From positions 104,532,001 to 104,596,000 of the forward strand of contig OZ024740.1 in the NCBI GenBank assembly GCA_964016885.1: DNA of 64,000 nt, given 5' to 3'. The translations under genes were made by a program, and so were the position numbers. This stretch comes from Eledone cirrhosa (taxonomy: Eukaryota). The notes under the pieces are model-generated. The model saw only the letters and a program-made list of their open reading frames with translations. It was not told the origin of the DNA and searched no databases. Of this stretch, positions 459 through 58,152 are shown one piece after another (the stretch's first letter is position 1; every line of letters starts with the position of its first letter).

Positions 459-1950
459 CTATACAAGCCATGTATAAAGAAACAGTCAGCAAGGTTAGAA
501 TTAACAACGAATATAGTGAAGAGTTTAGCGTAAAAGTTGGTGTCCATCAGGGCTCTGTTCTTAGCCCCCTACTATTTATTATTGCCCTTCAGGCTATAAC
601 AGAGGAGTTCAAGACCGGCTGCCCATGGGAACTCATATACGCAGATGATCTAACGCTCATAGCTTAATCAATGGCCGAGCTAGAGAAGAAATTCCAAACA
701 TGGAAGCACGGCCTAGAATCAAAAGGCCTTAAAATTAACCTGGCTAAGACTAAAGTTCTAGTTTGTAGGAAAGAAAATAAGGCGGCGGTCCCTTCTGGGA
801 AATGGCCATGCTCAGTGTGTAGGAAAGGCGTAGGTAGAAACTCCATTTTATGTCCCAAATGCAAAGTATGGGTGCATAAAAGATGTAGTGGGATCACAGG
901 TAAGCTAACTAAGAACATAGATTTTATATGTGGCCGGTGCTCTGAAAGTACAGTAGCTAGAGTCAGAACTGGATGGAAAAAGTTCAGAGAGCTTATACCA
1001 CTATTAGCCGCTAAAGGGTTCTCACTAAAAATGAAAGGCAGGTTGTATGATGCCTGAATACGAACAGAAATGCTGCATGGCAGTGAGACCTGGGCATTGC
1101 GTGCAGAGGATATACGCAGACTAGAGAGGAACGAAGCTTGCATGCTCCGCTGGATGTGTAATAGTAATATACGTGAACGGCTAAGCATAAACGAACTAAG
1201 GAAAAAATTAGAAATAAGAAGGATCAGATGTTGTTTACTCGAGAGAAGGCTACGTTGGTACGGTCACGTGATGCGCATGAAAGACGACAGCTGTATAACA
1301 AAGTGCAGGGCAATAAAGATAGACGGTAGCCACGGAGTAGGCAGACCCAGAAAAACATGGGACGAGCTGATAAATTCCGACCTCACACGCTTACACCTCT
1401 CCAAGACAATGTCACTGGACCGAGACCTTTGGCGGTACTCAGTAATAGAGAAGACCCGTCTTACCTAAATACAAAGTAAAACCTACTACAGTCAGTAGGC
1501 ATCTCTAACAAAACACCCCCCCCCCACCCCATCCACACCGCCCCTTTCAATGTAAAGTTATGTTGGTGCCACTACATCCAGGCCGAAACAAATGAGATCG
1601 TGTAGGTGTCACGACAAAAAAACACACAGTCCATGCTGTAATGTGGCCGTGTAGGCAACACGGTAAAAACCTCCCAGCCCCACACTGTAAATGTGGTTGG
1701 TGTTAGGAAGGGTATCCAGCTGTAGAAAACCCGCCAGACAGTCCACGCTGTAATGTGGCCATGTAGGCAACACGGTAAAAACCTCCCAGCCCCACACTGT
1801 AAATGTGGTTGGTGTTAGGAAGGGCATCCAGCTGTAGAAAACCCGCCAGACAGTCCTATGCGAGCAAGACAATCACTCTTGCCTCAAGTGGGAAAACCCC
1901 CGTCCAAACCCATGCAAGCGTGGAACATGGACGTTAAACGTTGATGATGA

Positions 1951-6391: not shown

Positions 6392-7910
6392 ATCATCATC
6401 ATCATCATCGTTTAACGTCCATGTTCCACACTTGCATGGGTTTGGACGGGAGTTTTCCCACTTTAGGCAAGAGGGGTTGTCATTGCTCGCATAGGACTGT
6501 CTGGCGGGTTTTCTACAGTTGGATGCCCTTCCTAACACCAACCACATTTACAGTGTGGACTGGGAGGTTTTTACCGTGTTGCCTACACGGCCACATTACA
6601 GCGTGGACTGTGTTTTTTTGTTGTGACACCTACACGATCTCATTTGTTTCGGCCTGGATGTTGTGGCACCAACATAACTTTACATTGAAAGGGGCGGTGT
6701 GGATGGGGTGGGGAGGTGGGACGGGGGTGTATTTTGTTAGAGATGCCTACTGACTGTAGTAGGTTTTACTTTGTATTTAGGTAAGGCGGGTCTTCTCTAT
6801 TACTGAGTACCGCCAAAGGTCTCGGTCCAGTGACATTGTCTTGGAGAGGTGTAAGTGTGTGAGGTCGGAATTTATCAGCTCGTCCCAGGTTTTTCTGGGT
6901 CTGCCTACTCCGTGGCTACCGTCTATCTTTATTGCCCTGCACTTTGTTATACAGCTGTCGTCTTTCATGCGCATCACGTGACCATACCAACGTAGCCTTC
7001 TCTCGAGTAAACAACATCTGATCCCTCTTATTTCTAATTTTTTCCTTAGTTCATTTATGCTTTGCCGTTCACGTATATTACTATTACACATCCAGCGGAG
7101 CATGCAAGCTTCGTTCCTCTCTAGTCTGCGTATATCCTCTGCACACAATGCCCAGGTCTCACTGCCATGCAACATTGCTGTTCGTATGCAGGCATCATAT
7201 AACCTGCCTTTCATTTTTAGGGAGAACCCTTTAGCGGCTAATAGTGGTATAAGCTCTGAACTTTTTCCATCCAGTTCTGACTCTAGCTACTGTACTTTCA
7301 GAGCACCCTCCCCCACTGCTAATTTTGTCACCCAGGTAACAGAAGCTGTCCACATTTCTATAGAACCCTCTGCGCAATTGAAAGAGCTAGTATTTTGTGG
7401 GCACTTGCTGCTACTTATTGCACCAGAGCACCGGCCACATGTAAAATCTATGTTCTTAGTTAGCTTACCTGTGATCCCACTACATCTTTTATGCACCCAT
7501 ACTTTGCATTTGGGACATAAAATGGAGTTTCTACCTACGCCTTTCCTACACACTGAGCATGGCCACTTCCCGGAAGGGACCGCCGCCTTATTTTCTTTCT
7601 TACAAACTAGAACTTTAGTCTTAGCCAGGTTAATTTTAAGGCCTTTTGATTCTAGGCCGTGCTTCCATGTTTGGAATTTCTTCTCTAGCTCGGCCATTGA
7701 TTCAGCTATGAGCGTTAGATCATCTGCGTATAGGAGTTCCCATGGGTAGCCGGTCTTGAACTCCTCTGTTATAGCCTGAAGGGCAATAATAAATAGTAGG
7801 GGGCTAAGAACAGAGCCCTGATGGACACCAACTTTTACGCTAAACTCTTCACTATATTCGTTGTTAATTCTAACCTTGCTGACTGTTTCTTTATACATGG
7901 CTTGTATAGA
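6392..7910 (-). mobile_element. 5'-truncated RTE LINE (family A)
   Basis: ORFs 7287-8378 (part) and 6777-7214; (CAT)n tail at left; single 3'UTR repeat unit. Confidence 0.95.
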
Positions 7911-8018
7911 TATATATATTTCGCTGTTAATAAACAACTGCCTTCTACAGTACGTTTCATTTAACTTACGCAGCATATTTATTTGTTTACATGTAATGTA
8001 ATTCAGACTCTTCTGTAC

Positions 8019-8271
8019 ACACACAACATTTAGGAAAACGGAAACAAAATACACAAAAAAACAAAACAAAAAAAACAGACATTTTATTTCTATCGTAATC
8101 GAGTGCGCTAAACACACAACAATAAAGGAAAACGGAAACAAAATACACAAACAAACAGACATTTTATTTCTATCGTAATCAAGTGCGCTAAACACACAAC
8201 ATTTAGGAAAACGGAAACAAAATACACAAACAAACAGACATTTTATTTCTATCGTAATCAAGTGCGCTAAA
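8019..8271 (+). repeat. Three ~80-bp tandem repeats in the CR1 5'UTR
   Basis: ACACACAACATTTAGGAAAACGGAAACAAAATACAC...CATTTTATTTCTATCGTAATCAAGTGCGCTAA, three copies. Confidence 0.9.
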
Positions 8272-8304
8272 CCTATATTGTTTACATTCTGTGTTTTTCT
8301 ACGG

Positions 8305-9654
8305 ATGGGTAGAAATAACAAAATTGCCATGGTGATATCCATCGATGAAGTATGCGACAAAACCGGCCGATGTCCCAAAATAGAACATTGCCCAGAAAAT
8401 CACATCTGCCATATCTGTGCGGAACCCGAAAACTCGTTCCGTAATCGCTGGGTCGAATGTAGAACCTGTCGCATCTCTGTCTGCCTTCAATGCACCACAG
8501 GCTTCCGGAGGATCCCAGGCCAAAAAAAGAGACATCATAATGCTATGATGGATGGAATCTGGGAGATGGTCCAGCTAAAATCCTGGTCCTTTCAGACCTG
8601 GCCTGTGTGCCTGCCTCCACTAATGTTATTAATGTTATTGAAAAACAACAACAACAAAAACCAATGACTGTGTCTTCCTCTACCATTGTTACTGAACAAT
8701 GGCAAAAACCTATGACACTGGCTTCTACTGCTATTCCTGTGGGAGAACATCAGAAACAACAACAACCCATGTCTTCCACTCCCAGTACATCTCGACACCA
8801 ACAACTGGTGACTGTGTCTTCCCCTACCATTCCCGTCGAGGAACATCATCATCACCACCAACAACAACAGCAACAACCTGCGACTGTGTCCTCCCCCGCC
8901 ATTCCCGTGGAGGAACATCATCATCACCAACAACAACAACAACAACAACAGCAACAACAACAGCAACAACCTGCGACTGTGTCCTCCCCTGCCATTCCCG
9001 TGGAGGAACATCATCATCACCAACAACAACAACAACCGACCAGTACAGATTTTGCGGAACTGCAACTAATGATTTCTGCTCTGAGAAGGGAAGTTGCAGG
9101 AATAGAGGCAAGCATTCGGGTAGGACCCCACAATGAGGGGTCTTATCGGAATGCCTTGCTAAAGAATCTCCCTGTACCTCTTGCTGAAAAAACTGAAAAG
9201 ACTGCGGAATCTGCTACCCATGAAGTGATTGCCATTGGAGTACCAGAGGACAAGGCTGATCTTCAGGCATTTGCTGCCAGCTCAGCCAAAGACCTAGGCT
9301 GTGTTCCCCCAAAGGGTGCCCTCCGCCTTGGTCGACCTGGTCCAAAACCCAGACTCATCAGGCTGTCTTTCTCGGACCCCGCAGAGGCAACCTCATATCA
9401 TCTGGCCTCTGCTAAAGCTGGGCGTGAAAATCGGATTACCTTCCGAACACGCCCATGTACGTCCAAAACTACGTGCTGCAGCTTCCTTGAATCGGAACTC
9501 AGCACAAGATGAAAGTTTCAGTCTGCGTGATGATGGGCAGATCTGGAGGTTTGTCAAGGCTGGTGAAACGTGGAAGAGAGATACCAGCTGGTCTGAGTGT
9601 GATCTACCCACAATAACTGGCAATGTAAAAACTGCTACAACTCTGGGAAACTAA
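8305..9654 (+). pseudogene. CR1 ORF1, frameshifted (PHD-like N-terminus, polyH/polyQ repeats)
   Basis: CHIC..CRTC....CLQC motif; TVSSPAIPVEEHHHHQQQ repeats; IAIGVPE...RLGRPGPKPRLIRLSF, typical of LINE ORF1. Confidence 0.7.
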
Positions 9655-9710: not shown

Positions 9711-12700
9711 TTGTTGTCCTTAAATGCTCGCAGTTTATGCAACAAGATACATCTGTTCGAATTCTACGTCAGAAGCATCGACCCTGACTTCATCACAGTC
9801 ACGGAAACATGGGCACATTCCTTACTCTGTGATGGGGTTTTCACCATTACTGGGTACAACCTTTTCCGCAAGGACCGCATTAACCGCCGTGGTGGTGGTG
9901 TGATGGTCTACGTTCGTTCAAACTTTTCGGTAATTCCTTGCGTTGATTTGAACGAATCACAGGAAGAAGTTTTTTTCTGTGACATACGTATGACCATGTC
10001 AACACTTCTGCTTGGTGTTGTTTATCGCCCCCCAAACTACCATCAGGACACACAGCTTTGCAATATCCTCAGAGTTGCTGCCAAGAAAACAGCCACTTAT
10101 GTGTTTATTGCAGGTGATTCAATCATCCTGAGATCGATTGGGAAACCTTTCGTTGGCCACAGGGTGCAAACGATTTCCTTGAACTAGTGCTGGACGCAAA
10201 CTGGTCACAAGTAGTCACCTCTCCAACAAGAGGTGACAACACTTTGGACCTGATCTTCACCACTACTCCTGAAGTGGTTATCAGTTGTACTACTGAGGAA
10301 CCTCTAGGCGACTCTGATCATGCTATGATCATTGCCAATCTGGCACTTGAGGGCAGCAACAAAAACCAGAGCCATCTCCAATCTGCTTGCTTTGATTGGA
10401 AGAGGGCGGATTGGAACTTGTACTGCACTGAGCTACAGCGCCCAAACTGGCATCATCATCATCATCATCATCATCAGGTTTAGCGTCCGTGTTCCACGCT
10501 TGCATGGGTTTGGACGGGGGTTTTCCCACTTGAGGCAAGAGTGGTTGTCTTGCTCGCATAGGACTGTCTGGCGGGTTTTCTACAGTTGGATGCCCTTCCT
10601 AACACCAACCACATTTACAGTGTGGGGCTGGGAGGTTTTTACCGTGTTGCCTAGACGGCCACATTACAGCGTGGACTGTCTGGCGGGTTTTCTACAGCTG
10701 GATGCCCTTCCTAACACCAACCACATTTACAGTGTGGGGCTGGGAGGTTTTTACCGTGTTGCCTACACGGCCACATTTACAGCGTGGACTGTGTGTTTTT
10801 TGTCGTGACACCTACACGATCTCATTTGTTTCGGCCTGGATGTTGTGGGACCAACATAACTTTACATTGAAAGGGGCGGTGTGGGTGGGGTGGAGGTGGT
10901 GGGACGGGGGTGTGTTTTGATAGAGGTGCCTACTGACTGTAGTAGGTTTTTACTTTGTATTTAGGTAAGGCGGGTCTTCTCTATTACTGAGTACCGCCAA
11001 AGGTCTCGGTCCAGTGACATTGTCTTGGAGAGGTGTAAGCGTGTGAGGTCGGAATTTATCAGCTCGTCCCATGTTTTTCTGGGTCTGCCTACTCCGTGGC
11101 TACCGTCTATCTTTATTGCCCTGCACTTTGTTATACAGCTGTCGTCTTTCATGCGCATCACGTGACCGTACCAACGTAGCCTGTATAACTCTGGAGATGT
11201 GAACTCTATACTCCAGAGCATCCTGGACTCAATATGGATAGCGTGTGCAGCATCAGTGCCACGGAAGCGGAAAAATAACCACCCCAAAAGTGCAATCTGG
11301 GAAACTTCAGCGGTCCGACTTGCCAGGAAAGAACGTCGGAACGCTGAACGGGAATATAAACTGCATAGATCAGATGCCAACAGAAAAAAGCGGAATAAAT
11401 CTTCTAACCATCTCAAGCAAGTGACAAAGAAGGCAGTGCTTGAATTTGAACAGTGCATCGCAACCAATCCTGACAGTAAGGTGTTCTGGAAATATGTTCA
11501 TTCAAAGCAGAGACCTCACTCTCCAGTTGGTCCTCTTCGCAATCCCCACACAAGCCAGATCACTGACGATCCCAAGGAATGCGCAGAACTCATTGCTGAG
11601 TGCTATGCAAATATTTTTACGGTTGAAAACCAGAATGTACCATCTCCACTATCTCTAACATCAAATTCCATAACAACTATGGAATTTACACCTGCAATGC
11701 TGTGACGTCACCTTAAGAATAAGCGCAACTATGCCTCCCCTGGTCTTGATGGTGTGACATACCTGCTTCTCAAACGTGGCGGAGATTTCCTTTTGCGCCA
11801 GCTTTCTTTTTTCTTTCAATACTGTCTCAGCAATGGTGCTACTCCGGAGCAGTGGAAAACTGCCAGTGTCATTCCCCTGTTCAAAAAGGGCAACCGCATG
11901 TCACCTGTCAACTATCGTCCAGTCAGTCTTACTAGCTGTATGGCCAAACTGATGGAATCCTGTGTCAGAGAAACACTTTGGAACTTCTGGAGCTCTCACA
12001 GCCTCATCCGGCCCTCACAGTTTGGATTTATCCCTAACTCCAGCTGCTGTGATCAGCTTATCGAGTTCCTTGAGGACATCACCCGGATCACTGACAGCGG
12101 CTCATGGGTGGATGTTGTTTACCTTGACTTTTAAGGCTTTTAATTCTGTGCCACACAAAAGACTTATGGCAAAACTCTCTGCAATGGGTGTGAGGGATGA
12201 TCTTTTCGACTGGCTGAAATCCTTCATTCTCAGCCGAAAGGAAGTAGTCACGGTTCTAGGACAACATTCTTCACCATATGAGATGTCATCTGGTGTACCA
12301 CAGGGATCTGTTCTTGGTCCTCTTTTGTTTGTGGCATATATTAATGACATAGATGCCAACTTACAGAATGCCACGGTACTAAAATATGCAGATGACATCA
12401 AGCTGTACCTTGAAATCAAAAGGACTGATCCTGAAATTTACAACTCTTTCCTACAATCAGACCTGGACACAATGCAGCAATGGATCAGACTGGCAACTGA
12501 AGCTGGCTGTGGACAAGTGTACCACCATGCATTTTGGAAGGAAAAATCCAGCGTCCACATACTCCCTCCACAACACTGACATCAAAAAGTCCTCTTGTGA
12601 ACGTGACCTGGGCATTACTGTCAGCAACGATTTGCGTTGGACAAAGCATGTCTCTAAGATTGTCAAGAAGGCCGAGGGTGTCTTGGCATCACTCAGCAAG

Positions 12701-13493: not shown

Positions 13494-13950
13494 AAAAGTA
13501 AACCCCTATACTTAACTTTTGTTGACTTGGAGATAGCCTTTGACAGAGACCCCCGCTCCATTATCTGGTGGGCTCTTAGAAAACTAGGTGTTGATGAATG
13601 GCTTGTGAGAGCTATACAAGCCATGTATAAAGAAACAGTCAGCAAGGTTAGAATTAACAACGAATATAGTGAAAAATTTAGTGTAAAAGTTGGTGTTCAT
13701 CAGGGCTCTGTCCTTAGCCCCTTCCTATTTATTATTGCCCTTCAGGCTATAACAGAGGAGTTCAAGACCGGCTGCCCATGGGAACTTCTATATGCAGATG
13801 ATCTAACGCTCATAACTGAATCGATGGCTGAACTAGAGAAGAAATTCCAAACATGGAACCATAGCCTAGAATCAAAAGGCCTTAAAGTTAACTTGTCTAA
13901 GACTAAAGTTCTAGTATGTAGGAAGGAAAATAAGGCACTGGTCCCCTTCC
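13494..13950 (+). mobile_element. RTE RT fragment (left arm of fold-back)
   Basis: ORF 13527-14063 with RT motifs. Confidence 0.9.
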
Positions 13951-15018
13951 ATGTTTGGAATTTCTTCTCTAGCTCGGCCATTGATTCAGCTATGAGCGTT
14001 AGATCATCTGCGTATAGGAGTTCCCATGGGCAGCCGGTCTTGAACTCCTCTGTTATAGCCTGAAGGGCAATAATAAATAGGAAGGGGCTAAGGACAGAGC
14101 CCTGATGAACACCAACTTTTACACTAAATTTTTCACTATATTCGTTGTTAATTCTAACCTTGCTGACTGTTTCTTTATACATGGCTTGTATAGCTCTCAC
14201 AAACCATTCGTCAACACCTAGTTTTCTAAGAGTCCACCAGATAATGGAACAGGGGTCTCTGTCGAAGGCTTTCTCCAAGTCGACAAAAGCTAAGTATAGG
14301 GGTTTACTTTTAGCTAGGTACTTCTCCTGTAGTTGTCGTACAATGAAAAGAGCGTCTGTGGTACTTTTGCCTGACACAAACCCGAACTGCATTTCATCTA
14401 GATCAATTCTCTCTCTGATTAGTTGCGCTATTACTTTTTCCGTGACCTTCATGACCTGGTCGATTAATTTAATGCCTCTATAGTTACTCCTATCTAGGGC
14501 ATCTCCTTTACCCTTATAACAGTTAATGATGATGCTGCTACGCGAGTCCTTCGGAACAACCCCATTCTGTACGACTTGGTTTACTATCCGGGTGACCATG
14601 GTGTGTCCCATCGTTCCAGATGCCTTCAGCATCTCAGCAACTATTTCCGAAGGCCCAGCTGCCTTACCCGTCTTCATATCTTTGATTGCCTTACTTATTA
14701 TACTACCCTCGACTAACACTGCTGGTCCCTCTATTGGGTCGATGTGGGGGAGACTGTCTTTCTCCCATTTATTCTCCTCATTTAGTAGCCTTTCGTAGTG
14801 ACACTTCCAAGCTACCTTCTTATCAGCGTCGGTGATGTCAAGTACGCCATCATCATTAAGTACACACTTCTCCCCGACAATATCACGGTTTTCCTTGACA
14901 CATTGCCTAGCAATCCTGAACACCTCACGTTTTTGGTCCTCGCGTTGTAGAACATGCTTGAACTTTCTTTCCTGTGCTTCCCTTCTTGCGAAATACACTT
15001 GTCTCCTAGCTTCCCTCC
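13946..15018 (-). mobile_element. RTE ORF fragment (right arm of fold-back)
   Basis: ORF 13742-15046 matches roughly aa 410-765 of the 1040-aa ORF. Confidence 0.9.
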
Positions 15019-15056
15019 TAACAAAAAGGTAATAAAGAAGTCTCAATGATCCTTAC

Positions 15057-21105: not shown

Positions 21106-21136
<31 letters not shown>

Positions 21137-21139
<3 letters not shown>

Positions 21140-21568
21140 TATTTTGCAATACACTGTATGCTTAATTAAAAGCATTTCGAAGACCTTACGCTATTGTTTT
21201 AGAGTAGTGACAGTCTCACTTACTTTAAATTTTCAGCAAACAGGGGAGATAAAGCTGACAGAGCTCTGTTTCGTACTGATTGGTACTTATCAAAGCCAAG
21301 TACTCCACCTGTTTGCTGAAAATCATGAATGTTTGATTCTTATAGAATTCTAGTAATAATCAGGAACTGATTATACAGAGCAGTTGCCGGTCAAGCAGAA
21401 ATTGAAAATTAGAATTGGTGCTCTGAAATAGCGATATATATATGAATATATATATAATGTATTTTGCAATACACTGTATGCTTAATTAAAAGCATTTCGA
21501 AGACCTTACGATATTGTTTTACACTATATATACATTCATATATATATATCGCTATTTCAGAGCACCAA

Positions 21569-21575
<7 letters not shown>
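21137..21575 (-). mobile_element. Retrozyme-like element, locus 1 (320-bp period, inverted terminal piece)
   Basis: GTATTTTGCAATACAC recurs at 21139 and 21459; 21525-21575 inverts ~21408-21456; flanked by (TA)n; contains a hammerhead. Confidence 0.82.
21253..21297 (-). ncRNA. Type I hammerhead ribozyme, U3-A8 core variant
   Basis: Minus strand: ggct-TTGATAA-gtac caatca gtac-GAAA-cagagctctg-TC-agct. Confidence 0.85.
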
Positions 21576-21640
<65 letters not shown>

Positions 21641-23962: not shown

Positions 23963-24967
23963 TCAGAACTGGATGGAAAAAGTTCAGAGAGCTTATACCA
24001 CTATTAGCCACTAAAGGGTTCTCCCTAAAAATGAAAGGCAGATTGTATGATGCCTGCATACGAACAGCAATGTTGCATGGCAGTGAGACCTGGGCATTGT
24101 GTGCAGAGGATATACGCAGACTAGAGAGGAAGGAAGCTTGCATGCTCCGCTGGATGTGTAATAGTAACATACGTGAACGGCAAAGCATAAGTGAACTAAG
24201 GAAAAAATTAGAAATAAGAGGGATCAGATGTTGTTTACTCGAGAGAAGGCTACGTTGGTATGGTCACGTGATGCGCATGAAAGACGACAGCTGTATAACA
24301 AAGTGCAGTGAAATAAAGATAGACGGTAGCTACGGAGTAGGCAGACCCAGAAAAACCTGGGACGAGCTGATAAATTCCGACCTCACACACTTACACCTCT
24401 CCAAGACAATGTCACTGGACCGAGACCTTTGGCGGTACTCAGTAATAGAGAAGACCCGCCTTACCTAAATACAAAGTAAAACCTACTACAGTCAGTAGGC
24501 ATCTCTAACAAAATACACCCCCGTCCCACCACCCCCACCCCATCCACACCGCCCCTTTCAATGTAAAGTTATGTTGGTGCCACAACATCCAGGCCGAAAC
24601 AAATGAGATCGTGTAGGTGTCACGACAAAAAAACACACAGTCCACGCTGTAATGTGGCCGTGTAGGCAACACGGTAAAAACCTCCCAGCCCCACACTGTA
24701 AATATGGTTGGTGTTAGGAAGGGCATCCAGCTGTAAAAAACCCGCCAGACAGTCCACGCTGTAATGTGGCCGTGTAGGCAACACGGTAAAAACCTCCCAG
24801 CCCCACACTGTAAATGTGGTTGGTGTTAGGAAGGGCATTCAGCTGTAGAAAACCCGCCAGACAGTCCTATGCGAGCAAGACAACCACTCTTGCCTCAAGT
24901 GGGAAAACTCCCATCCAAACCCATGCAAGCGTGGAACACGGATGTTAAACGATGATGATGATGATGA
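23960..24967 (+). mobile_element. 5'-truncated RTE (family A)
   Basis: ORF 24031-24468; two 3'UTR units; (GAT)n tail. Confidence 0.95.
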
Positions 24968-26993: not shown

Positions 26994-29900
26994 GCTGCTC
27001 TCACACTCACCCTCACTCCTTGCCAACCAAACATAAATAAGCCTTGTTACAGGGGACTAAACCCAGAATTTGTCTCCTATTATTGATGGTCGCTTGTTCA
27101 GTTTTCTTCTACGAAATGTAACGTAAATATTTCATTTTCTTCTCAACTCTCCACATTCGGTTCATTCATCTATATATCTTACAATCCCCCAGAATCAAAA
27201 AATCGTATTCAAAATTGGCTTTCTATAATTCTGTTCTGTCTCACCGTTGTTCTAAAAATAATTCTGCTCCTCGCAAACTACCCCATACCCCTCCCTCCCG
27301 CCCCCACTCTCCACATTATTTGGACCAATCACAGGTAAACGACCTATGCTAGCACTTCTGGTTGCTTTTTCGATATGATGGATGAACTAGGGAATTTCTG
27401 GAGAGTCAGAAGAATATGGACACCCGAAGACAATGCAAAAGATAACGACAAATTCACCTCATGCTGCCGGACGAAAGGGCAAAGCCCCACCCTCTTTGTT
27501 GCGGCCGCGGATGGCCAACATAACCCCAACCCCATCAACCTCACCCCTCCCTGCACCTCACCCACCAAACGCAATCCAAAACTTCAGAGTTGGTACCATG
27601 AATGTAGGGACCTTAAAAGGCCGCTCAAACGAGGTTGTAGAAATGCTTGAACGTAAGGAGGTCGATGTTTGTTGTATTCAAGAGACAAGGTGGAGGGGAG
27701 GGTCTGCTAGATTCACTGTGGGTAAAAAACGATGCTATAAGCTTTTTTGGGTGAGAAATGACAATGGGCTGGGTGGGGTAGGAATCATGTTAGCAGAAAA
27801 ATGGGTGGATAAGATAGACGTAAATAGAGTAAACGACAGAATAATTAAAATAAGACTTGTTCTAAATAGAACTACTGTGACGATAATATCTGCGTACGCG
27901 CCCCAATCCGGACTGCCTGGCGCTATAAAAGACACTTTCTATGAAACACTGATGCTCACTACCTCCCAAATAACCGACAGTGACTATATAATTATTGCTG
28001 GCGACCTAAATGGTCACGTTGGACAACATTGTGATGGCTATGGTGAAATCCATCGAGGCTATGGGTTTGGTACTAGAAATGAGGAAGGCTCCAGAATCCT
28101 GGAATTCTGTGACGCAAATAACCTAACAATCTGTAACACTAACTTCAAAAAACGAGACAATCACTTGATCACCTACGGATCAGGGGAACATACCAGCCAG
28201 GTAGATTATATCCTTACCAGAAGACGTGACAGAGTGACTGTTGTAAATACTAAATCCCTCCCCCATGAAGAATGCACCTCCCCACATAGACTGATAATTA
28301 GCGACCTCATAGTCAGGACGAGACATACTCGACAGCAGAAGAGGACTATCCTCAGGAGAAAAATATGGAAGCTAAAGGACCCCACAGCCAGAAATAAATT
28401 TCAAAGCATATTACTTGATGCTTTCGACAGTAAGGAAGAGCATTTAGAGTCGGACAATATAGAGGGACAGTGGGAATTCCTGAAAGCAAACCTGCTGATG
28501 GCAGCAGACGAAGTCTGTGGCCAGAGCAGGCCTATAGGCAGGAGGAGAGTAACATGGTGGTGGAACAGTAAGGTGGAGGAGTCAATTAAGGCCAAAAAGC
28601 AGGCTTGGAAAGTATGGCGGGATGGGGGAAGTAGAGAAGACTATCAAGTGGCCAGGAGGGAAGCTAGGAGACAAGTGTACTTCGCAAGAAGGGAAGCAGA
28701 GGAAAGAAAGTTCAAGCATGTTCTACAACGCGAGGACCAAAAACGTGAGGTGTTCAGGATTGCTAGGCAATGTGTCAAGGAAAACCATGATATTGTTGGG
28801 GAGAAGTGTGTACTAAATGATGATGGCGTACTTGCCATCACTGACGCTGATAAGAAGGTCGCTTGGAAGTGTCACTACGAGAGGCTACTAAATGAGGAGA
28901 ATAAATGGGAGAAGGATAGTCTCCCCCAGATCGATCCAATAGAGGGACCAGCAGTGTTAGTTGAAGGTAGTATAATAAGTAAGGCAATCAAAGATATGAA
29001 GACGGGTAAGGCGGCTGGGCCTTCGGAAATAGTTGCTGAGATGCTGAAGGCCTCTGGAACGGTGGGACACACCATGGTCACCCGGATAGTAAACCAAGTC
29101 ATACAGAATGGGGTTGTTCCAAAGGACTGGCGTAGCAGCATCATCATTAACTGTTATAAGGGTAAAGGAGACGCTCTAGATAGGAGTAACTATAGAGGCA
29201 TTAAATTAATCGACCAGATCATGAAGGTCACGGAAAAAGTAATAGTGCAACTAATCAGAGAGAGAATCGATCTAGATGAAATGCAGTTCGGGTTTGTGTC
29301 AGGCAAAAGTACCACAGACGCTCTTTTCATTGTACGACAACTACAGGAGAAGTACCTAGCTAAAAGTAAACCCCTATACTTAGCCTTTGTCGACTTGGAG
29401 AAAGCCTTCGACAGAGTCCCCCGTTCCATTATCTGGTGGGCTCTTAGAAAACTAGGTGTTGACGAATGGCTTGTGAGAGCTATACAAGCCATGTATAAAA
29501 AAACAGTCAGCAAGGTTAGAATTAACAACGAATATAGTGAAGAGTTTAGCGTAAAAGTTGGTGTCCATCAGGGCTCTGTTCTCAGCCCCCTACTATTTAT
29601 TATTGCCCTTCAGGCTATAACAGAGGAGTTCAAGACCGGCTGCCCATGGGAACTCATATACGCAGATGATCTAACGCTCATAGCTGAATCAATGGCCGAG
29701 CTAGAGAAGAAATTCCAAACATGGAAGCACGGCCTAGAATCAAAAGGCCTTAAAATTAACCTGGCTAAGACTAAAGTTCTAGTTTGTAGGAAAGAAAATA
29801 AGGCGGCGGTCCCTTCCGGGAAATGGCCATGCTCAGTGTGTAGGAAAGGCGTAGGTAGAAACTCCATTTTGTGTCCCAAATGCAAAGTATGGGTGCATAA

Positions 29901-31243
29901 AAGATGTAGTGGAATCATAGGTAAGCTAACTAAGAACACAGATTTTACATGTGGCCGGTGCTCTGGTGCAATAAGTAGCAGCAAGTGCCCACGAAATACT
30001 AGCTCTTTCAATTGTGCAGAGGGTTCTATAGAAACAGTGGACAGCTTCCGTTACCTGGGTGACAAAATCAGCAGTGGGGGAGGGTGCTCTGAAAGTACAG
30101 TAGCTAGAGTCAGAACTGGATGGAAAAAGTTCAGAGAGCTTATACTACTATTAGCCGCTAAAGGGTTCTCCCTAAAAATGAAAGGCAGGTTGTATGATGC
30201 CTGCATACGAACAGCAATGCTGCATGGCAGTGAGACCTGGGCATTGTGTGCAGAGGATATACGCAGACTAGAGAGGAACGAAGCTTGCATGCTCCGCTGG
30301 ATGTGTAATAGTAATATACGCGAACGGCAAAGCATAAACGAACTAAGGAAAAAATTAGAAATAAGAGGGATCAGATGTTGTTTACTCAAGAGAAGGCTAC
30401 GTTGGTATGGTCACGTGATGCGCATGAAAGACGACAGCTGTATAGCAAAGTGCAGGGCAATAAAGATAGACGGTAGCCACGGAGTAGGCAGACCCAGAAA
30501 AACCTGGGACGAGCTGATAAATTCCAACCTCACACACTTACACCTCTCCAAATGAAAGACGACAGCTGTATAGCAAAGTGCAGGGCAATAAAGATAGACG
30601 GTAGTCACGGAGTAGGCAGACCCAGAAAAACCTGGGACGAGCTGATAAATTCCGACCTCACACACTTACACCTCTCCAAGACAATGTCACTGGACCGAGA
30701 CCTTTGGCGGTACTCAGTAATAAAGAAGACCCGCCTTACCTAAATACAAAGTAAAACCTACTACAGTCAGTAGGCATCTGTAACAAAATACACCCCCGTC
30801 CCACCACCCCCACACCACCCCTTTCAATGTAAAGTTATGTTGGTGCCACAACATCCAGGCCGAAACAAATGAGATCGTGTAGGTGTCACGACAAAAAAAA
30901 ACAAAAAAACACACAGTCCACGCTGTAAATGTGGGCGTGTAGGTAACACGGTAAAAACCTCCCAGCCCCACACTGTAAATGTGGTTGGTGTTAGGAAGGG
31001 CATCCAGCTGTAGAAAACCCGCCAGACAGTCCACGCTGTAATGTGGCTTTGTAGGCAACACGGTAAAAACCTCCCAGCCCCACACTGTAAATGTCGTTGG
31101 TGTTAGGAAGGGCATCCAACTGTAGAAAACCCGCCAGACAGTCCTATGCGAGCAAGACAACCACTCTTGCCTCAAGTGGGAAAACTCCCGTCCAAACCCA
31201 TGCAAGTGTGGAACATGGACGTTAAACGATGATGATGATGAAG
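26994..31243 (+). mobile_element. Near full-length RTE LINE (family A)
   Basis: Single long ORF, 3'UTR repeats and (GAT)n tail. Boundaries inferred from the MITE it splits. Confidence 0.92.
27433..30555 (+). CDS. RTE APE endonuclease-reverse transcriptase polyprotein with internal PHD finger
   Basis: 1040 aa: GTMNVGTL, IQETRW, AYAPQ, GDLNGH, VDYIL (APE); NYRGIKL, QFGF, FVDLEKAFD, QGSVLSP, YADD (RT). C-terminus clipped by a 128-bp duplication. Confidence 0.95.
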   Translation: MQKITTNSPHAAGRKGKAPPSLLRPRMANITPTPSTSPLPAPHPPNAIQNFRVGTMNVGTLKGRSNEVVEMLERKEVDVCCIQETRWRGGSARFTVGKKRCYKLFWVRNDNGLGGVGIMLAEKWVDKIDVNRVNDRIIKIRLVLNRTTVTIISAYAPQSGLPGAIKDTFYETLMLTTSQITDSDYIIIAGDLNGHVGQHCDGYGEIHRGYGFGTRNEEGSRILEFCDANNLTICNTNFKKRDNHLITYGSGEHTSQVDYILTRRRDRVTVVNTKSLPHEECTSPHRLIISDLIVRTRHTRQQKRTILRRKIWKLKDPTARNKFQSILLDAFDSKEEHLESDNIEGQWEFLKANLLMAADEVCGQSRPIGRRRVTWWWNSKVEESIKAKKQAWKVWRDGGSREDYQVARREARRQVYFARREAEERKFKHVLQREDQKREVFRIARQCVKENHDIVGEKCVLNDDGVLAITDADKKVAWKCHYERLLNEENKWEKDSLPQIDPIEGPAVLVEGSIISKAIKDMKTGKAAGPSEIVAEMLKASGTVGHTMVTRIVNQVIQNGVVPKDWRSSIIINCYKGKGDALDRSNYRGIKLIDQIMKVTEKVIVQLIRERIDLDEMQFGFVSGKSTTDALFIVRQLQEKYLAKSKPLYLAFVDLEKAFDRVPRSIIWWALRKLGVDEWLVRAIQAMYKKTVSKVRINNEYSEEFSVKVGVHQGSVLSPLLFIIALQAITEEFKTGCPWELIYADDLTLIAESMAELEKKFQTWKHGLESKGLKINLAKTKVLVCRKENKAAVPSGKWPCSVCRKGVGRNSILCPKCKVWVHKRCSGIIGKLTKNTDFTCGRCSGAISSSKCPRNTSSFNCAEGSIETVDSFRYLGDKISSGGGCSESTVARVRTGWKKFRELILLLAAKGFSLKMKGRLYDACIRTAMLHGSETWALCAEDIRRLERNEACMLRWMCNSNIRERQSINELRKKLEIRGIRCCLLKRRLRWYGHVMRMKDDSCIAKCRAIKIDGSHGVGRPRKTWDELINSNLTHLHLSK

Positions 31244-33012: not shown

Positions 33013-34710
33013 CATCATCATCATCATCATCACCGTTTTACGTCCGTTCTTCCACGCTAGCATGGGTTAGACGGGTTGTCCTATTGTGGGCAGTGTCTGG
33101 TCGGCTGACCATGCCTTGCTCATACAGGAACTGATTTGGCTTGATTTCTACAGCTGGATGCCCTTCCTAACACCAACCTCATTTACAGTGAGTGCTGGGT
33201 GCTTTTTCGTGGTGCCTACACGTCCACTTTACAGTGTGGGCTGGGTGCTTTTTTTGCCGTGGCACCTCCACGACCACCTTGCGATGGGGAGTGTGGGGGC
33301 ATATTGTCTATATGCTTCAGCTTGTACCCATGGGAGGTCGGGTACTCTGTATTACTGCGTGACGCCAGAGGTCACGGTCGTGTGTCATTGTCTTTGAGAG
33401 GTGTAATTGGGTAAGGTCCGCTTTTATCACCTCATCCCAGGTCATCTTGGGTCTCCCCACTCCGCGGTTTCCATCGACTTCTAGTGCTCTGCACCTTTTT
33501 ATGCAGCTGTCATCCTTCATACGCATCACATGTCCATACCAGCGCAGCCGCCTCTCCTGCACACAGCATTTGATTCCTCTTATGCTCAGTCTCTCTCTCA
33601 ATTCATTTATGCTTTGTCGTTCACGTATATTACTATTACACATCATTCGGAGCATGCAGGCTTCGTTTCTCTCTAATCTACCTAAGTCTTCCACCTTCAG
33701 CGCCCAGGTCTCACTACCATGCAACATCGCTGTCTGGATACACGCATCATACAGTCTGCCTTTCATTCTGAGGGAGAAGCCTTTTGCAGCTAGCAGTGGT
33801 AGTAGTTCCCTAAACTTCTTCCATCCCGTTCTTACCTTAGTTATTGTACTTTCTGAACACCCACCTCCGCTGCTAATTCGGTCACCTAGGTAGCAGAAGC
33901 TGTCTACTGTTTCTAAAGAGCCCTCCCAGAGATTGGTGGTACTTGTTTCCTGTGGCTGTTTGCTGCTTGCTGTCCCAGCATAGCTGTTGCATGTGAAGCC
34001 TACATTCTTAATTAAGCTTCCTGAGATCCCGCTACATCTCTTGTGTACCCATTGTTTGCATTTGGGGTAGAGAATGGAGTTCCTACCTACACCTTTCCTA
34101 CATACTGAGCAAGGCCATTTCCCTGAGGGGATCTGGGTTCTGTTTTCTCGTCTACTTACAAGGTCCTTAGTCTTTGTCATGTTGACTTTGAGACCCTTTC
34201 TTTCTAGTCCCTGCTTCCAAGTTTGGAATTTATTCTCTAGTTCTACCATAGATTCAGCTATAAGTGCGAGGTCATCAGCATACAGGAGTTCCCATGGGCA
34301 TCCGGTCTTAAACTCCAAATTCCTCCGTTATTGCCTGCAGGACTATGATGAACAGGAGGGGGCTAAGAACAGAGCCCTGGTGGACCCCAACCTGTACGCT
34401 AAATTCCTCGCTATACTCATTGCTAATCCTAACTTTGCTGACTGCTCCCCTATACATGGCTTGTACCGCTTTCACAAGCCATTCATCTACTCCTAGTTTT
34501 CTAAGAGCCCACCAGATTACAGCACGTGGAACTCTGTCAAAGGCTTTCTCAAGGTCGACAAATGCCAAGTAGAGTGGCTTACTTTTAGCTAGGTACTTTT
34601 CCTGTAAATGCCTCACAAGGAAGAGGGCATCAGTGGTGCCTCTTCCTGGTACAAACCCAAATTGCATCTCGTCTATTTTCACCCAGTCCCTAATCAACTG
34701 TGCTATAACT
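33013..34710 (-). mobile_element. 5'-truncated RTE (family B)
   Basis: ORFs 34308-34697 and 33317-34318; distinct 3'UTR; (CAT)n tail. Confidence 0.95.
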
Positions 34711-39462: not shown

Positions 39463-39649
39463 ATATATGTATATATATAAAAATTAGAATTGGAGCTCTG
39501 AAATAGCAATATATATATGGATGTATATATAATGTATTTTGCAATACACTTTATGCTTAATTAAAAGCATTTTGAAGACCGTAAGCTATTGTTTTTTTTT
39601 AGAGTAGTGACAAATTCACTTACTTTGATCTCAGCAAACAGGGGAGATA

Positions 39650-39694
39650 AGCCGACAAGGCCTTGTTTCGCTTTTGTTGAAGCTTATCAAGGCT
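39650..39694 (-). ncRNA. Type I hammerhead, U3-A8 variant
   Basis: Reverse complement reads agcc-TTGATAA-gctt caacaa aagc-GAAA-caaggccttg-TC-ggct. Confidence 0.87.
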
Positions 39695-39793
39695 AACTAC
39701 TCCCACCTGTCTACCGAGATCACTGATGTTATATTCTTATAGAATTCTAGTAAATAATCAGGAGCTGATTATGCAGAGCGGTTGTTGGTAGTT

Positions 39794-39838
39794 AGCCTTG
39801 ATAAGCTTCAACAAAAGCGAAACAAGGCCTTGTCGGCT
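39794..39838 (+). ncRNA. Type I hammerhead, U3-A8 variant
   Basis: agcc-TTGATAA-gctt caacaa aagc-GAAA-caaggccttg-TC-ggct; predicted cut after 39834. Confidence 0.87.
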
Positions 39839-40116
39839 TATCTCCCCTGTTTGCTGAGATCAAAGTAAGTGAATTTGTCACTACTCTAAAAAAAAACAAT
39901 AGCTTACGATCTTCAAAATGCTTTTAATTAAGCATAAAGTGTATTGCAAAATACATTATATATACATCCATATATATATTGCTATTTCAGAGCTCCAATT
40001 CTAATTTTTAATTTCTGCCTGACCAACAACCGCTCTGCATAATCAGCTCCTGATTATTTACTAGAATTCTATAAGAATATAACATCAGTGATCTCGGTAG
40101 ACAGGTAGGAGTAGTT

Positions 40117-40161
40117 AGCCTTGATAAGCTTCAACAAAAGCGAAACAAGGCCTTGTCGGCT
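40117..40161 (+). ncRNA. Type I hammerhead, U3-A8 variant
   Basis: Identical motif; predicted cut after 40157. Confidence 0.87.
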
Positions 40162-40320
40162 TATCTCCCCTGTTTGCTGAGATCAAAGTAAGTGAATTTG
40201 TCACTACTCTAAAAAAAAAAAACAATAGCTTACGGTCTTCAAAAGGCTTTTAATTAAGCATAAAGTGTATTGCAAAATACATTATATATACATCCATATA
40301 TATATATATATATATATATA

Positions 40321-56425: not shown

Positions 56426-58123
56426 CTAAATATAGACGGTGCTGCAAAATTTTTTGGGCCAGTGGACCCTACGACCTGAACGGGTCGTGGTCTTGTAACG
56501 TGGCGATGGTGGTGGTGTCGGGACAGGCGATGATGGTGGTTCAGGAACAGGCGTTCGCTCAACAGGCAAATACGAAGGGGTTCGTGGATCAGGAACCACA
56601 GCGTCCGTGTCAAGGAGCGCTTGCTTAAGCCTGTCTAATGTAACTGTCTCCCTGGACCCTTTAATATCTAAAGTGAAATGCTTAGCCGAGCGCGCTAAGA
56701 CGCGGTAAGGTCCAGTGTAAGGCTGTGTGAGTGGGGGCTTCACCGTATCATTCCTTACAAAGACATGCGTCCACGAGGCAATATCCCTCGGGACAGCAGT
56801 CTTGACAGTTTGTTTCCTAGTGTCCATTGGCGGCAAATCCTGGAAATAGGAGCGCAAACAGGACACGTAGGAAGCGTGATCTTGGGCATCAAGATCGATA
56901 GCGGCAAGCATTTGCCCGGGCAACGTCAGAGGGGCACCGTACAGTACTTCGGCCGGTGAAAATCCAAAGTCGACCTTCACCGTTGACCGAATCCCTAGTA
57001 GCACAATAGGGAGGTACTCGCTCCAATGCGCCGAGTCCATTGAGGCCATTAAGGAGGCCTTCAGTTGGCGGTGAAAACGCTCCACCATACCATTCGAAGC
57101 GGGTTGGTACGCCGTAGTTCTAATGCGTTTAGCACCAATTAATTTTGACAGCTCAAGGAAAAGGCTCGACTCGAACTGTCGTCCACGGTCGGTAGTTATT
57201 GTGGATGGAACTCCATATCGAGAGATCCATCCAGACACCAGAGCACGTGCTGTTGTCTCCGCGGTGATGTTTTTCAAGGGGATGGCCTCAGGCCATCTCG
57301 AAAAACGGTCAATGACGGTAAGTAGATAAGAAAAACCATCGCTGACAGGCCAAGGTCCCACTATGTCAATATGAATATGTGAAAAACGCGCATCTGGGTT
57401 AGCAAAGGTACCCAGGGGAGCCTTGACGTGTCGATGGACCTTTGATCTCTGGCAAGCGACGCAGGAACGGCACCAAGCAGCAATTTCACGCCTCATATTT
57501 GGCCAGAAAAATCTAGCTGATATGAGGTTTGCTGTGGCAGAAGATCCTGGATGCGAGATACAATGTAATCCCAGAAACACGGTCCGACGATGATTCTCTG
57601 GAACGAAGGGCCTAGGCATGTCCAAAGAGACGTCACAGAGAATTTGGCCAACTGCAGTCGACAGAGGCAAGTATTTCATCTCGCAATTCACAAACTCGGG
57701 CGATGTGACATCCAATGACTCAAGGGGAGGCTGATCCCCAGCCAATCGAGTCAGATCTATGTCAGAGGATGACGAGATCGCTGTCACGGGTAAGCGGGAC
57801 AAAGCATCAGCCGCTGTATTTAGTGAACCCGGAATGTGCTGGATATCACTCGTATATTGCGAGATGAAATCAAGGTGTCTCGTCTCTCTGGGCGAGTATT
57901 TATCAGCCTTCGCTCTCAAAGCAAAAGTCAATGGTTTATGGTCAGTGAGGATAGTAAATTGTCTACCCTCTAGCACATGTGAAAAATGTTTCACGGCCAA
58001 ATAGATGGCTAAAAGCTCTCTTCCAAAGGTGCTGTAGCGTGTCTCAGCAGGATTTAGCTTTTTGGAAAAAAACTCCAGCGGTTGCTGGTAACCATTGATG
58101 TTTTGCTGTAGCACTGCGCCCAC
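56426..58123 (-). CDS. Gypsy RNase H-integrase (open segment of pol)
   Basis: [50 protein letters not shown]. Confidence 0.9.
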
Positions 58124-58152
58124 AGCGATATCCGATGCATCAACACAAAGCG

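What the first reader, a model, noticed from the sequence alone, without database searches (positions are those of the whole stretch)
21137..21575. Second, diverged retrozyme copy shows compensatory changes in every ribozyme stem
Seen: the locus 1 hammerhead keeps TTGATAA, GAAA and GTC unchanged while the stems differ yet still pair. Stem I is ggct/agct versus agcc/ggct. Stem II is gtac/gtac versus gctt/aagc. Stem III is palindrome acagagctctgt versus acaaggccttgt. The outer stem is attttcagcaaacagg/cctgtttgctgaaaat versus the GU-rich version. The period is 320 versus 323 bp. Inference: selection acted on RNA structure, so the variant core was functional. The strictly palindromic stem III also permits the dimeric hammerhead fold known from Penelope-type ribozymes.
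Basis: partly seen in the sequence, partly recalled or inferred. Interest (0 to 1): 0.82.

Follow-up and report, generated by a model that had tools for sequence, protein, structure and literature searches.

The report
Retrozyme family with co-evolving hammerhead stems
This is one copy of a 320-base non-coding repeat, present thousands of times in this animal genome, whose hammerhead-shaped RNA stems changed in matched pairs from subfamily to subfamily, so it is likely a self-cutting jumping element of a known kind (a retrozyme), predicted to cut best as a two-copy pair.

Summary
Observation confirmed. 21137-21575 is a 1.2-unit copy (period 320) of a non-coding repeat with a type I hammerhead on the minus strand, plus a 54-base inverted arm, inside a TA microsatellite; a sister copy lies at 39480-40305. 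The genome holds 4,821 U3-A8 and 1,406 C3-G8 motif matches (controls 4, 0). Covariation is real: 20 of 22 pair states shared by several copies keep pairing against 16 of 70 rare ones; subfamilies form a ladder of compensated steps; the core 3-8 pair switched at least twice. Stem III stays palindromic at lengths 6-11, and the double hammerhead beats two monomers in 26 of 26 tandem pairs (folding prediction). Two-armed insertions with two fixed ends point to Penelope-type enzymes; no partner with shared sequence was found. All main parts are published: retrozymes, U3-A8, dimer folds, compensatory stems. One extra: a covarying helix predicted to lock the monomer circle (30 of 33), but it fails in two subfamilies. 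Cleavage and expression are untested. The scan has noted similar two-armed retrozymes elsewhere in this genome. New member of a known kind; interest 0.33.

The parts
21107..21136 (.). (TA)15 target microsatellite, left flank
21137..21521 (-). Long arm of the insertion: 1.2 units (period 320; 64-base repeat 21138-21201 / 21458-21521), 5'-truncated at 21521, 3' 'short' end merging with the TA run; subfamily A
21308..21323 (-). Outer stem, 5' arm (distal helix I)
21253..21297 (-). Type I hammerhead: stem I, core UUGAUAA (U3-A8), stem II GUAC/GUAC with loop CAAUCA, GAAA, palindromic stem III, GUC; predicted cut between 21257 and 21256
21258..21269 (-). 12-base palindrome forming stem III; 4 bp plus tetraloop as monomer, 12 bp in a predicted double hammerhead
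21229..21244 (-). Outer stem, 3' arm
21522..21575 (+). Short inverted arm, head-to-head with the long arm, carrying the 'long' 3' end (the one-sided tail)
21574..21635 (.). (AT)31 target microsatellite, right flank
39480..39784 (-). Sister insertion (subfamily B), minus arm with one hammerhead (U3 at 39690) and the 'long' end
39788..40305 (+). Sister insertion, plus arm: 1.6 units with two tandem hammerheads (U3 at 39798 and 40121), 'short' end followed by (TA)19

Best explanation
The stretch is a two-armed insertion of a high-copy, non-coding 320-base repeat with a type I hammerhead motif whose stems covary across subfamilies; it is likely a non-LTR retrozyme whose tandem transcripts are predicted to self-cut through a double hammerhead, are then likely joined into circles, and are likely copied into TA microsatellites by Penelope-type reverse transcriptase and endonuclease supplied in trans. 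Shown by sequence or calls: motif, copy number, covariation, subfamily ladder, insertion shape, TA targets, presence of intact Penelope-type elements in the genome. Predicted by folding: dimer preference. Inferred: selection acting through the RNA of source copies, cleavage, circles, identity of the enzyme.
For: Covariation: alignment A1, 68 copies from separate insertions, 65 distinct; 210 double-change cells vs 69 shuffled, 0 of 500 shuffles as high, slid controls 7-23. Shared states 20 of 22 paired, rare states 16 of 70, Fisher p = 1e-8; 7 shared G.U states and 0 A.C, so the constraint is strand-specific as for RNA (4 of 35 pairs left out). Tree on non-hammerhead columns gives a ladder with stem II GTAC/GTAC, GCAC/GTGC, GCAT/ATGC, GCTT/AAGC. 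Core pair 3-8: U-A 54, C-G 8, U.G 1, other 2; one clade for all U3-A8 copies is rejected, AU p = 1e-7, 35 rows, 156 columns; the second U3-A8 lineage has 267 matches, control 0. U3-A8 reported active in vitro (PMC3088659 passage). Double hammerhead 0.0-10.9 kcal/mol above the minimum vs 6.7-23.6 for two monomers, lower in 26 of 26 tandem pairs. Insertion shape: 76 of 122 loci are head-to-head arms; 55 of those 76 have one short and one long 3' end; 71 of 77 long ends are followed by (TA)4+; this matches the Penelope pattern in PMC8557442. Ends avoid the cut site: 5 of 133 5' ends lie within 10 bases of it, flat distribution; 1 site has TA after the cut site vs 906 forward-strand long ends, so the template was read through the cut site. 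An intact 938-aa RT + GIY-YIG element with 99% identical terminal repeats, a U3-A8 hammerhead and the same last seven bases before (AT)n exists in the genome (L194).
Against: No cleavage or expression data. Rfam gathering score not reached. Only 1 of 9 Xenopus retrozyme dimers cleaved in vitro in the 2026 preprint. No autonomous element with homologous terminal repeats in 40 GIY-YIG loci examined of 150 listed; the one hit (L175) is a separate insertion. Propagated non-paired states exist: U.U at the base of stem II in C3-G8 subfamilies, A.A in subfamily F, U.U in helix I of A and B (57 of 65 rows), a GUU triplet in subfamily E. Covariation counts reflect about a dozen lineage events, not 65. 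Read-through of the cut site fits an uncut multimer as well as a circle. Folding energies omit tertiary contacts and magnesium.
Confidence: 0.82

Rival explanations
1. Same element, but with a selected switch: a helix between the end of stem I plus core bases 3-5 and the 5' half of the stem III palindrome locks monomers and circles in an inactive rod, and only a tandem partner unlocks them.
For: The lock is the predicted minimum-energy fold of A, B and C monomers and has probability above 0.5 in 30 of 33 circular units. It covaries: position 2.1 with stem III base 4 is U-A in 56 loci, C-G in 51, U.G in 13, other in 5; position 3 with base 3 is U-A 54, U.G 42, C-G 12, other 18; 92% of 377 cells paired, 0 of 500 shuffles. 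PMC7229834 leaves open how animal retrozyme circles avoid cutting.
Against: Out-of-sample test failed: in subfamily F only 1 of 17 copies has four contiguous lock pairs, the rest two or three; subfamily D2 breaks it. Only about four lineage changes support it, two of them from G.U states where any transition restores a pair. The +1 slide scores nearly as well (0.244 vs 0.279). The RNAalifold consensus contains neither the lock nor stems I and III. G5-C15.2 is available to any GUC hammerhead. Found after the fact.
Confidence: 0.3
2. The hammerhead works as an ordinary monomer, stabilised by loop 1-loop 2 contacts and the 16-bp outer stem; the palindrome is a leftover.
For: Stem III can form 4 bp plus a tetraloop in A and B, longer than the 1-2 bp of dimer-only hammerheads. 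In subfamily A circles the hammerhead fold is only a median 2.6 kcal/mol above the minimum. Coral and mussel monomers cut well.
Against: The loop's own ends stay complementary in every subfamily-level variant seen (6 to 11 bases) and change together (AGCT to GGCC), which a monomer does not need; dimer fold lower in 26 of 26 pairs.
Confidence: 0.3
3. The units are detached terminal repeats (pseudo-LTRs) of an autonomous Penelope-like element, the 5'-truncated remains of its insertions, not a separate retrozyme.
For: [quoted passage not shown]
Against: Units repeat head-to-tail at 296-324 bases with no coding sequence between them (26 pairs; arrays of six); no long frame at locus 1 or in 30 subfamily E loci; no homology to terminal repeats in 40 GIY-YIG loci.
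Confidence: 0.1
4. The matched changes come from DNA-level palindrome correction or template switching, and the ribozyme is dead cargo.
For: Short inverted repeats can be homogenised by template switching (general knowledge, no call); no activity shown.
Against: Seven shared G.U states and no A.C states; the 3-8 pair is a tertiary pair outside any palindrome arm and switched twice; GAAA kept in 217 of 231 copies and GTC in 216 of 231.
Confidence: 0.04

Closest known systems
Metazoan non-LTR retrozymes (Cervera and de la Pena 2020, PMC7229834, parts 2-4 of 6 read; Li, Clavereau and Pollet 2026, bioRxiv 10.64898/2026.07.22.740005, parts 1-3 of 5 read)
   Same: Non-coding, low-GC tandem unit of a few hundred bases with one type I hammerhead per unit, thousands of copies, co-existing with Penelope-like elements; axolotl motifs cut best as dimers; U.U at the base of helix II also in HHR_Amex2.
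   Different: U3-A8 is the majority core here; stem III is longer (up to 12 bp in a dimer); insertions are mostly two-armed in TA runs; folding predicts the core sequestered in the circle, which that paper says is not the rule in animals (some mussel circles excepted). No RNA evidence here.
Hammerheads of Penelope-like elements, including the U3-A8 Cercyon variant of Schistosoma mansoni (Cervera and de la Pena 2014, PMC4209133, parts 1-2 of 4 read)
   Same: [quoted passage not shown]
   Different: Those are minimal motifs (helix II 7-8 bp, little or no helix III, unpaired base after position 9) in the repeats of coding elements; this one has a 4-bp helix II, a 6-base loop 2, a long helix I and no coding frame.
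Penelope-like element insertion architecture (Craig et al. 2021, PMC8557442, passages read)
   Same: Partial tandems, inverted 5'-truncated copy at the 5' end, extension at one end only, microsatellite bias.
   Different: No RT or GIY-YIG frame; extension here is about 25-55 bases (blurred by the TA patch) against 30-40 reported.
Dolichopoda pDo500 satellite hammerheads (PMC2837043, passages read) and repeat-type Aedes hammerheads with 10-bp palindromic dimer stem (PMC3088659, passages and a legend read)
   Same: Compensatory stem changes used as evidence of constraint; palindromic stem and loop III able to pair fully in a dimer.
   Different: Here the changes are ordered along a ladder of subfamilies within one genome and include two switches of the core 3-8 pair.

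Membership tests
Type I hammerhead ribozyme | Core CUGANGA or its U3-A8 covariant, GAAA, NUH | tested here: met
   UUGAUAA, GAAA, GUC at both loci; U3-A8 accepted as natural, active covariant
Type I hammerhead ribozyme | Three helices around the core, open at helix I, supported by covariation | tested here: met
   double changes in helices I, II, III and pair 3-8
Type I hammerhead ribozyme | Rfam hammerhead model at gathering score | tested here: not met
   0 hits at gathering; HH9 17.8 of 52 bits, E 0.12, at the right place
Type I hammerhead ribozyme | Loop 1-loop 2 tertiary contacts | not tested
   Loop 2 CAANNA and a GUA/GUG bulge are conserved; likeness to the Schistosoma contacts is recalled, from no call
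Type I hammerhead ribozyme | Site-specific self-cleavage | not testable with these tools
   needs a bench assay
Non-LTR retrozyme | Tandem unit of about 150-450 bases, each with a type I hammerhead | tested here: met
   26 tandem pairs, period 296-324; arrays of six
Non-LTR retrozyme | Non-coding, GC below 50%, many dispersed copies | tested here: met
   no frame of 130 aa at locus 1; GC 0.36 in the 2-kb bin; 4,821 + 1,406 motif matches
Non-LTR retrozyme | Two consecutive complete hammerhead units in this insertion ('active' copy of the 2026 preprint) | tested here: not met
   locus 1 has one hammerhead; locus 2 has two in tandem, the first lacking its 5' outer arm; met elsewhere in the family
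Non-LTR retrozyme | Expressed as unit-length linear and circular RNA | not testable with these tools
   no listed run is on record as RNA
Non-LTR retrozyme | Target-site duplication | tested here: inconclusive
   ends lie in TA runs, which hide duplications
Penelope-like element (autonomous) | RT plus GIY-YIG reading frame | tested here: not met
Penelope-like element (insertion signature) | Partial tandem, inverted 5'-truncated copy, one-sided tail, microsatellite target | tested here: met
   76 of 122 loci two-armed; 55 of 76 one short and one long end; TA flanks
Penelope-derived non-autonomous element | Homology to the terminal repeat of an autonomous element | tested here: inconclusive
   none in 40 of 150 listed GIY-YIG loci beyond seven shared terminal bases with L194
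Minimal Penelope hammerhead (min-HHR) | Helix II 7-8 bp, helix III absent or 1-2 bp, unpaired base after position 9 | tested here: not met
   helix II 4 bp, helix III 4 bp as monomer, no extra base in A and B

The most novel reading that the evidence does not exclude
A naturally evolved lock-and-key hammerhead: in the A/B/C lineage the stem III palindrome doubles as an anti-core strand that pairs over catalytic bases 3-5 in monomers and circles, co-evolving with stem I and with the 3-8 core pair, and is released only when a tandem partner forms the 12-bp double-hammerhead stem. This would answer, for one animal family, how retrozyme circles escape self-cleavage, and the subfamilies that lost the lock (D2, F) would be built-in controls.
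Probability: 0.3. Interest if true: 0.6.

Novelty: new member of a known kind. Interest (0 to 1): 0.33.

Why it matters
As a family it is ordinary for its class. Its value is as a test set: a dated ladder of natural hammerhead variants in one genome, with two switches of the catalytic 3-8 pair and stem III palindromes of 6 to 11 bases, allows direct comparison of monomer, dimer and circle cleavage. If the predicted lock is real it addresses a question left open in PMC7229834 (how animal retrozyme circles avoid cutting themselves). The two-armed, two-ended insertions add to indirect evidence that Penelope-type enzymes move retrozymes.

Tried and rejected
Rfam: no hit at gathering in the window; below-threshold microRNA hits come from the inverted arms. 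Expression: no RNA holder listed; contigs of three runs of unrecorded kind hold the family, two from other organisms, at low cover; no evidence either way on expression. My first count of C3-G8 copies (89 of 3,237) was too low because the pattern fixed stem III length and GTC; the fair counts are 1,406 vs 4,821. An apparent pile-up of 5' ends at the cut site (11 of 152) was an artefact of the reference edge; redone it is 5 of 133, flat. The end bins were mis-set and were redone. RNA-editing marks: A>G 26 vs T>C 29 on the sense strand in 70 copies, p = 0.79, none seen. Whether both arms come from one RNA molecule: arm-to-arm distance was below the nearest other locus in 8, equal in 11, above in 28 of 47; the control is biased towards small values, so inconclusive. 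RNAalifold on A1 returned only the outer stem, stem II and a small 5' hairpin. Autonomous partner by sequence: none in 40 loci. Lock helix as a family-wide rule: rejected by subfamily F. Literature: 'retrozyme, hammerhead, octopus' 3 papers, 2 listed and 'hammerhead ribozyme, cephalopod' 4 papers, 2 listed, none describing this family by title or abstract start; the clade words were my guess from the repeat content and come from no call. Searches for a self-pairing block in retrozymes and for U3A8 rescue data gave nothing relevant. Lunse et al. 2017 is not held (seen only as a title) and the supplement of PMC7229834 could not be read; either may already show this family or such a helix. Look-up of earlier scan notes by sequence was blank.

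Full report
Observation. The window is from a 3.0-Gb animal genome (G000, C1:104532001-104596000) and is filled with retroelement fragments. A hammerhead scan of both strands finds four matching motifs of one family: 21293 minus, 39690 minus, 39798 plus and 40121 plus (a fifth, loose match at 2430 is unrelated). The loci are 83% identical. Both hammerhead domains fold far better than shuffles, z -7.0 and -6.1, and for the G.U-rich copy the hammerhead strand is 11.8 kcal/mol more stable than its complement. Rfam gives no hit at gathering score, only a weak Hammerhead_HH9 match at the right place (17.8 of 52 bits).

Family size and subfamilies. DNA searches return dozens of 96-99% identical copies of each locus (only 40 candidates scored each). 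A pattern built on flanks only gives 3,869 matches, control 0; by eye 85 of the first 100 listed carry TTGATAA and none CTGATGA. Core-anchored patterns give 4,821 U3-A8 matches (control 4) and 1,406 C3-G8 matches (control 0). The C3-G8 copies are homologous over the whole unit (79-86% to locus 1; older subfamily E 76-80%). A tree of 97 units on 208 non-hammerhead columns gives a ladder: C (C3-G8), A (locus 1), intermediates, B (locus 2), D1, D2, with median within-group divergence 5.8% (C), 2.9% (A), 1.9% (B), 1.0% (D2) (A and B samples are biased to close copies).

Covariation. In 231 copies from 125 insertions, GAAA is kept in 217 and GTC in 216; stem II states by insertion are GCTT/AAGC 42, GTAC/GTAC 40, GCAT/ATGC 20 (6 with an extra A), GCAC/GTGC 7. 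I aligned 68 of the 120 full-length representatives, leaving out most near-identical A and B search hits and adding six C copies. With the hammerhead structure, 93.1% of 2,258 cells pair (shuffled 86.7, slid 39-51), with 210 double-change cells (shuffled 69), 0 of 500 shuffles as high; the two measures that count pairs or types do not exceed shuffles (94 and 247 of 500). Because related copies inflate such counts, I split states by spread: those in three or more rows keep pairing in 20 of 22 cases, those in one or two rows in 16 of 70 (p = 1e-8); 7 shared states involve G.U and none A.C (four pairs left out: one mostly U.U, three with gaps or unstable alignment). So changes that spread were compensated and changes after insertion were not. 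The tertiary 3-8 pair is U-A 54, C-G 8, U.G 1, other 2. A second U3-A8 lineage (F, 267 matches, control 0) groups apart from A/B/D, and one clade for all U3-A8 copies is rejected (AU p = 1e-7; 35 rows, 156 columns), so the pair switched at least twice; the root, and thus the direction of the first switch, is not fixed. Against: propagated mismatches at the base of stem II (U.U in C and E, A.A in F), a GUU triplet in E and a U.U in helix I.

Dimer. Stem III between GAAA and UC is a palindrome with at most a central mismatch in the subfamily-level states seen, from 6 to 11 bases, and the loop ends change together, which a single hairpin does not need. For 26 natural tandem pairs, the double hammerhead lies 0.0-10.9 kcal/mol above the minimum (it is the minimum in 6) and two separate hammerheads 6.7-23.6; the double form is lower in 26 of 26. 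These energies omit tertiary contacts. Palindromic dimer stems are known (PMC4209133; PMC3088659 legend S8; PMC6765202 and PMC6466107 passages).

Possible lock. The predicted monomer fold is not the hammerhead: the end of stem I and core bases 3-5 pair with the 5' half of the palindrome, with probability above 0.5 in 30 of 33 circular units (no C, E or F units included). The pairs covary along the ladder through G.U steps. PMC7229834 says animal circles are mostly predicted to leave the hammerhead free and must be blocked otherwise. But the support is about four lineage changes, the +1 slide scores nearly as high, D2 breaks the helix, and F, examined afterwards as a test, has four contiguous pairs in only 1 of 17 copies. 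I give it 0.3.

Mobility. Of 122 insertions mapped, 76 are two arms joined head to head with 3' ends outward; 55 of the 76 have one end in a TA-rich patch about 118-143 bases after the cut site and the other at about 165-177. Both window loci fit. Long ends are followed by (TA)4+ in 71 of 77 cases. This is the Penelope pattern described in PMC8557442 (passages). Ends ignore the cut site: 5 of 133 5' ends within ten bases, and one site with TA after the cut against 906 forward-strand long ends. The template was therefore read through the cut site, as a circle or an uncut multimer. The genome has many GIY-YIG frames and an intact 938-aa RT + GIY-YIG element with 99% identical repeats, its own U3-A8 hammerhead and the same seven terminal bases before (AT)n (L194). 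No homologous terminal repeat was found in 40 of 150 listed loci, so the partner is inferred, not identified.

Comparison and novelty. It works like, and fits the tested sequence features of, a metazoan non-LTR retrozyme (PMC7229834; preprint 10.64898/2026.07.22.740005); RNA circles and cleavage, which complete the definition, could not be tested (no RNA run listed). It is not an autonomous Penelope element and not a minimal Penelope hammerhead. U3-A8 is published as natural and active and compensatory stems in hammerhead repeats are published. Searches found no description of this family or of such a lock, but one key paper and one supplement could not be read. Earlier scan notes describe the same two-armed shape in other retrozyme families of this genome; their editing lead was tested here and was negative.

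Verdict. Observation confirmed, interpretation supported, new member of a known kind, interest 0.33; the lock-and-key reading has probability 0.3 and would deserve 0.6.

Noticed in passing
L194 (G000:C1:145868500-145876500), also L195, L203, L205, L188: Young, intact Penelope-type element: 938-aa RT + GIY-YIG frame, terminal repeats 99% identical 4,979 bases apart, minimal hammerhead with U3-A8 core and ACCGGT palindrome, ending in (AT)n. Candidate source of enzyme.
   Followed up: partly
L174, L175, L176, L177, L179, L181, L185, L190, L193, L210, L211 (downstream of GIY-YIG): A second Penelope family also carries a U3-A8 hammerhead with an unpaired base after position 9 and the same ACCGGT palindrome; U3-A8 thus recurs in at least two coding families of this genome.
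   Followed up: no
L184:25, L203:374, 5713, 6645, L206:1858, L212:5266, 5639; L092, L098, L102: Several unrelated C3-G8 hammerhead repeat families occur in the fetched loci.
   Followed up: no
G000:C1:6519930-6521566 (L105) and C1:62808525-62810332 (L152): Youngest subfamilies D1 and D2 have a 9-base odd palindrome, period 316, and the longest arrays seen (six units in one arm).
   Followed up: partly
L040:947-2328: A five-unit array alternates between two unit variants (a, b, a, b, b), which suggests a two-unit template or mixed source.
   Followed up: no
L095 and L096 (C1:107149650 and C1:107181524); L011 and L012; L082 and L084: Pairs of near-identical insertions with shared private changes, probably segmental duplications or assembly duplicates; they inflate copy counts slightly.
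   Followed up: no
window 27391-30555 (+), 7287-8399 (-), 33317-34327 (-), 13742-15052 (-): LINE frames; the first is 1,054 aa with endonuclease, RT and a C-terminal PHD finger.
   Followed up: no
window 56426-59410 (-): LTR-retroelement pol region in pieces: RT, RNase H and integrase matches in separate frames. Described only.
   Followed up: no
window 1626-1856, 10561-10792, 24637-24867, 30913-31144: Four near-identical copies of a repeat with a 112-base internal duplication, likely a SINE-like family.
   Followed up: no
window 21340-21365 (minus strand) and the same place in all subfamilies: A conserved hairpin and a TATA-like motif lie just upstream of the outer stem; a possible internal promoter, untested.
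   Followed up: no
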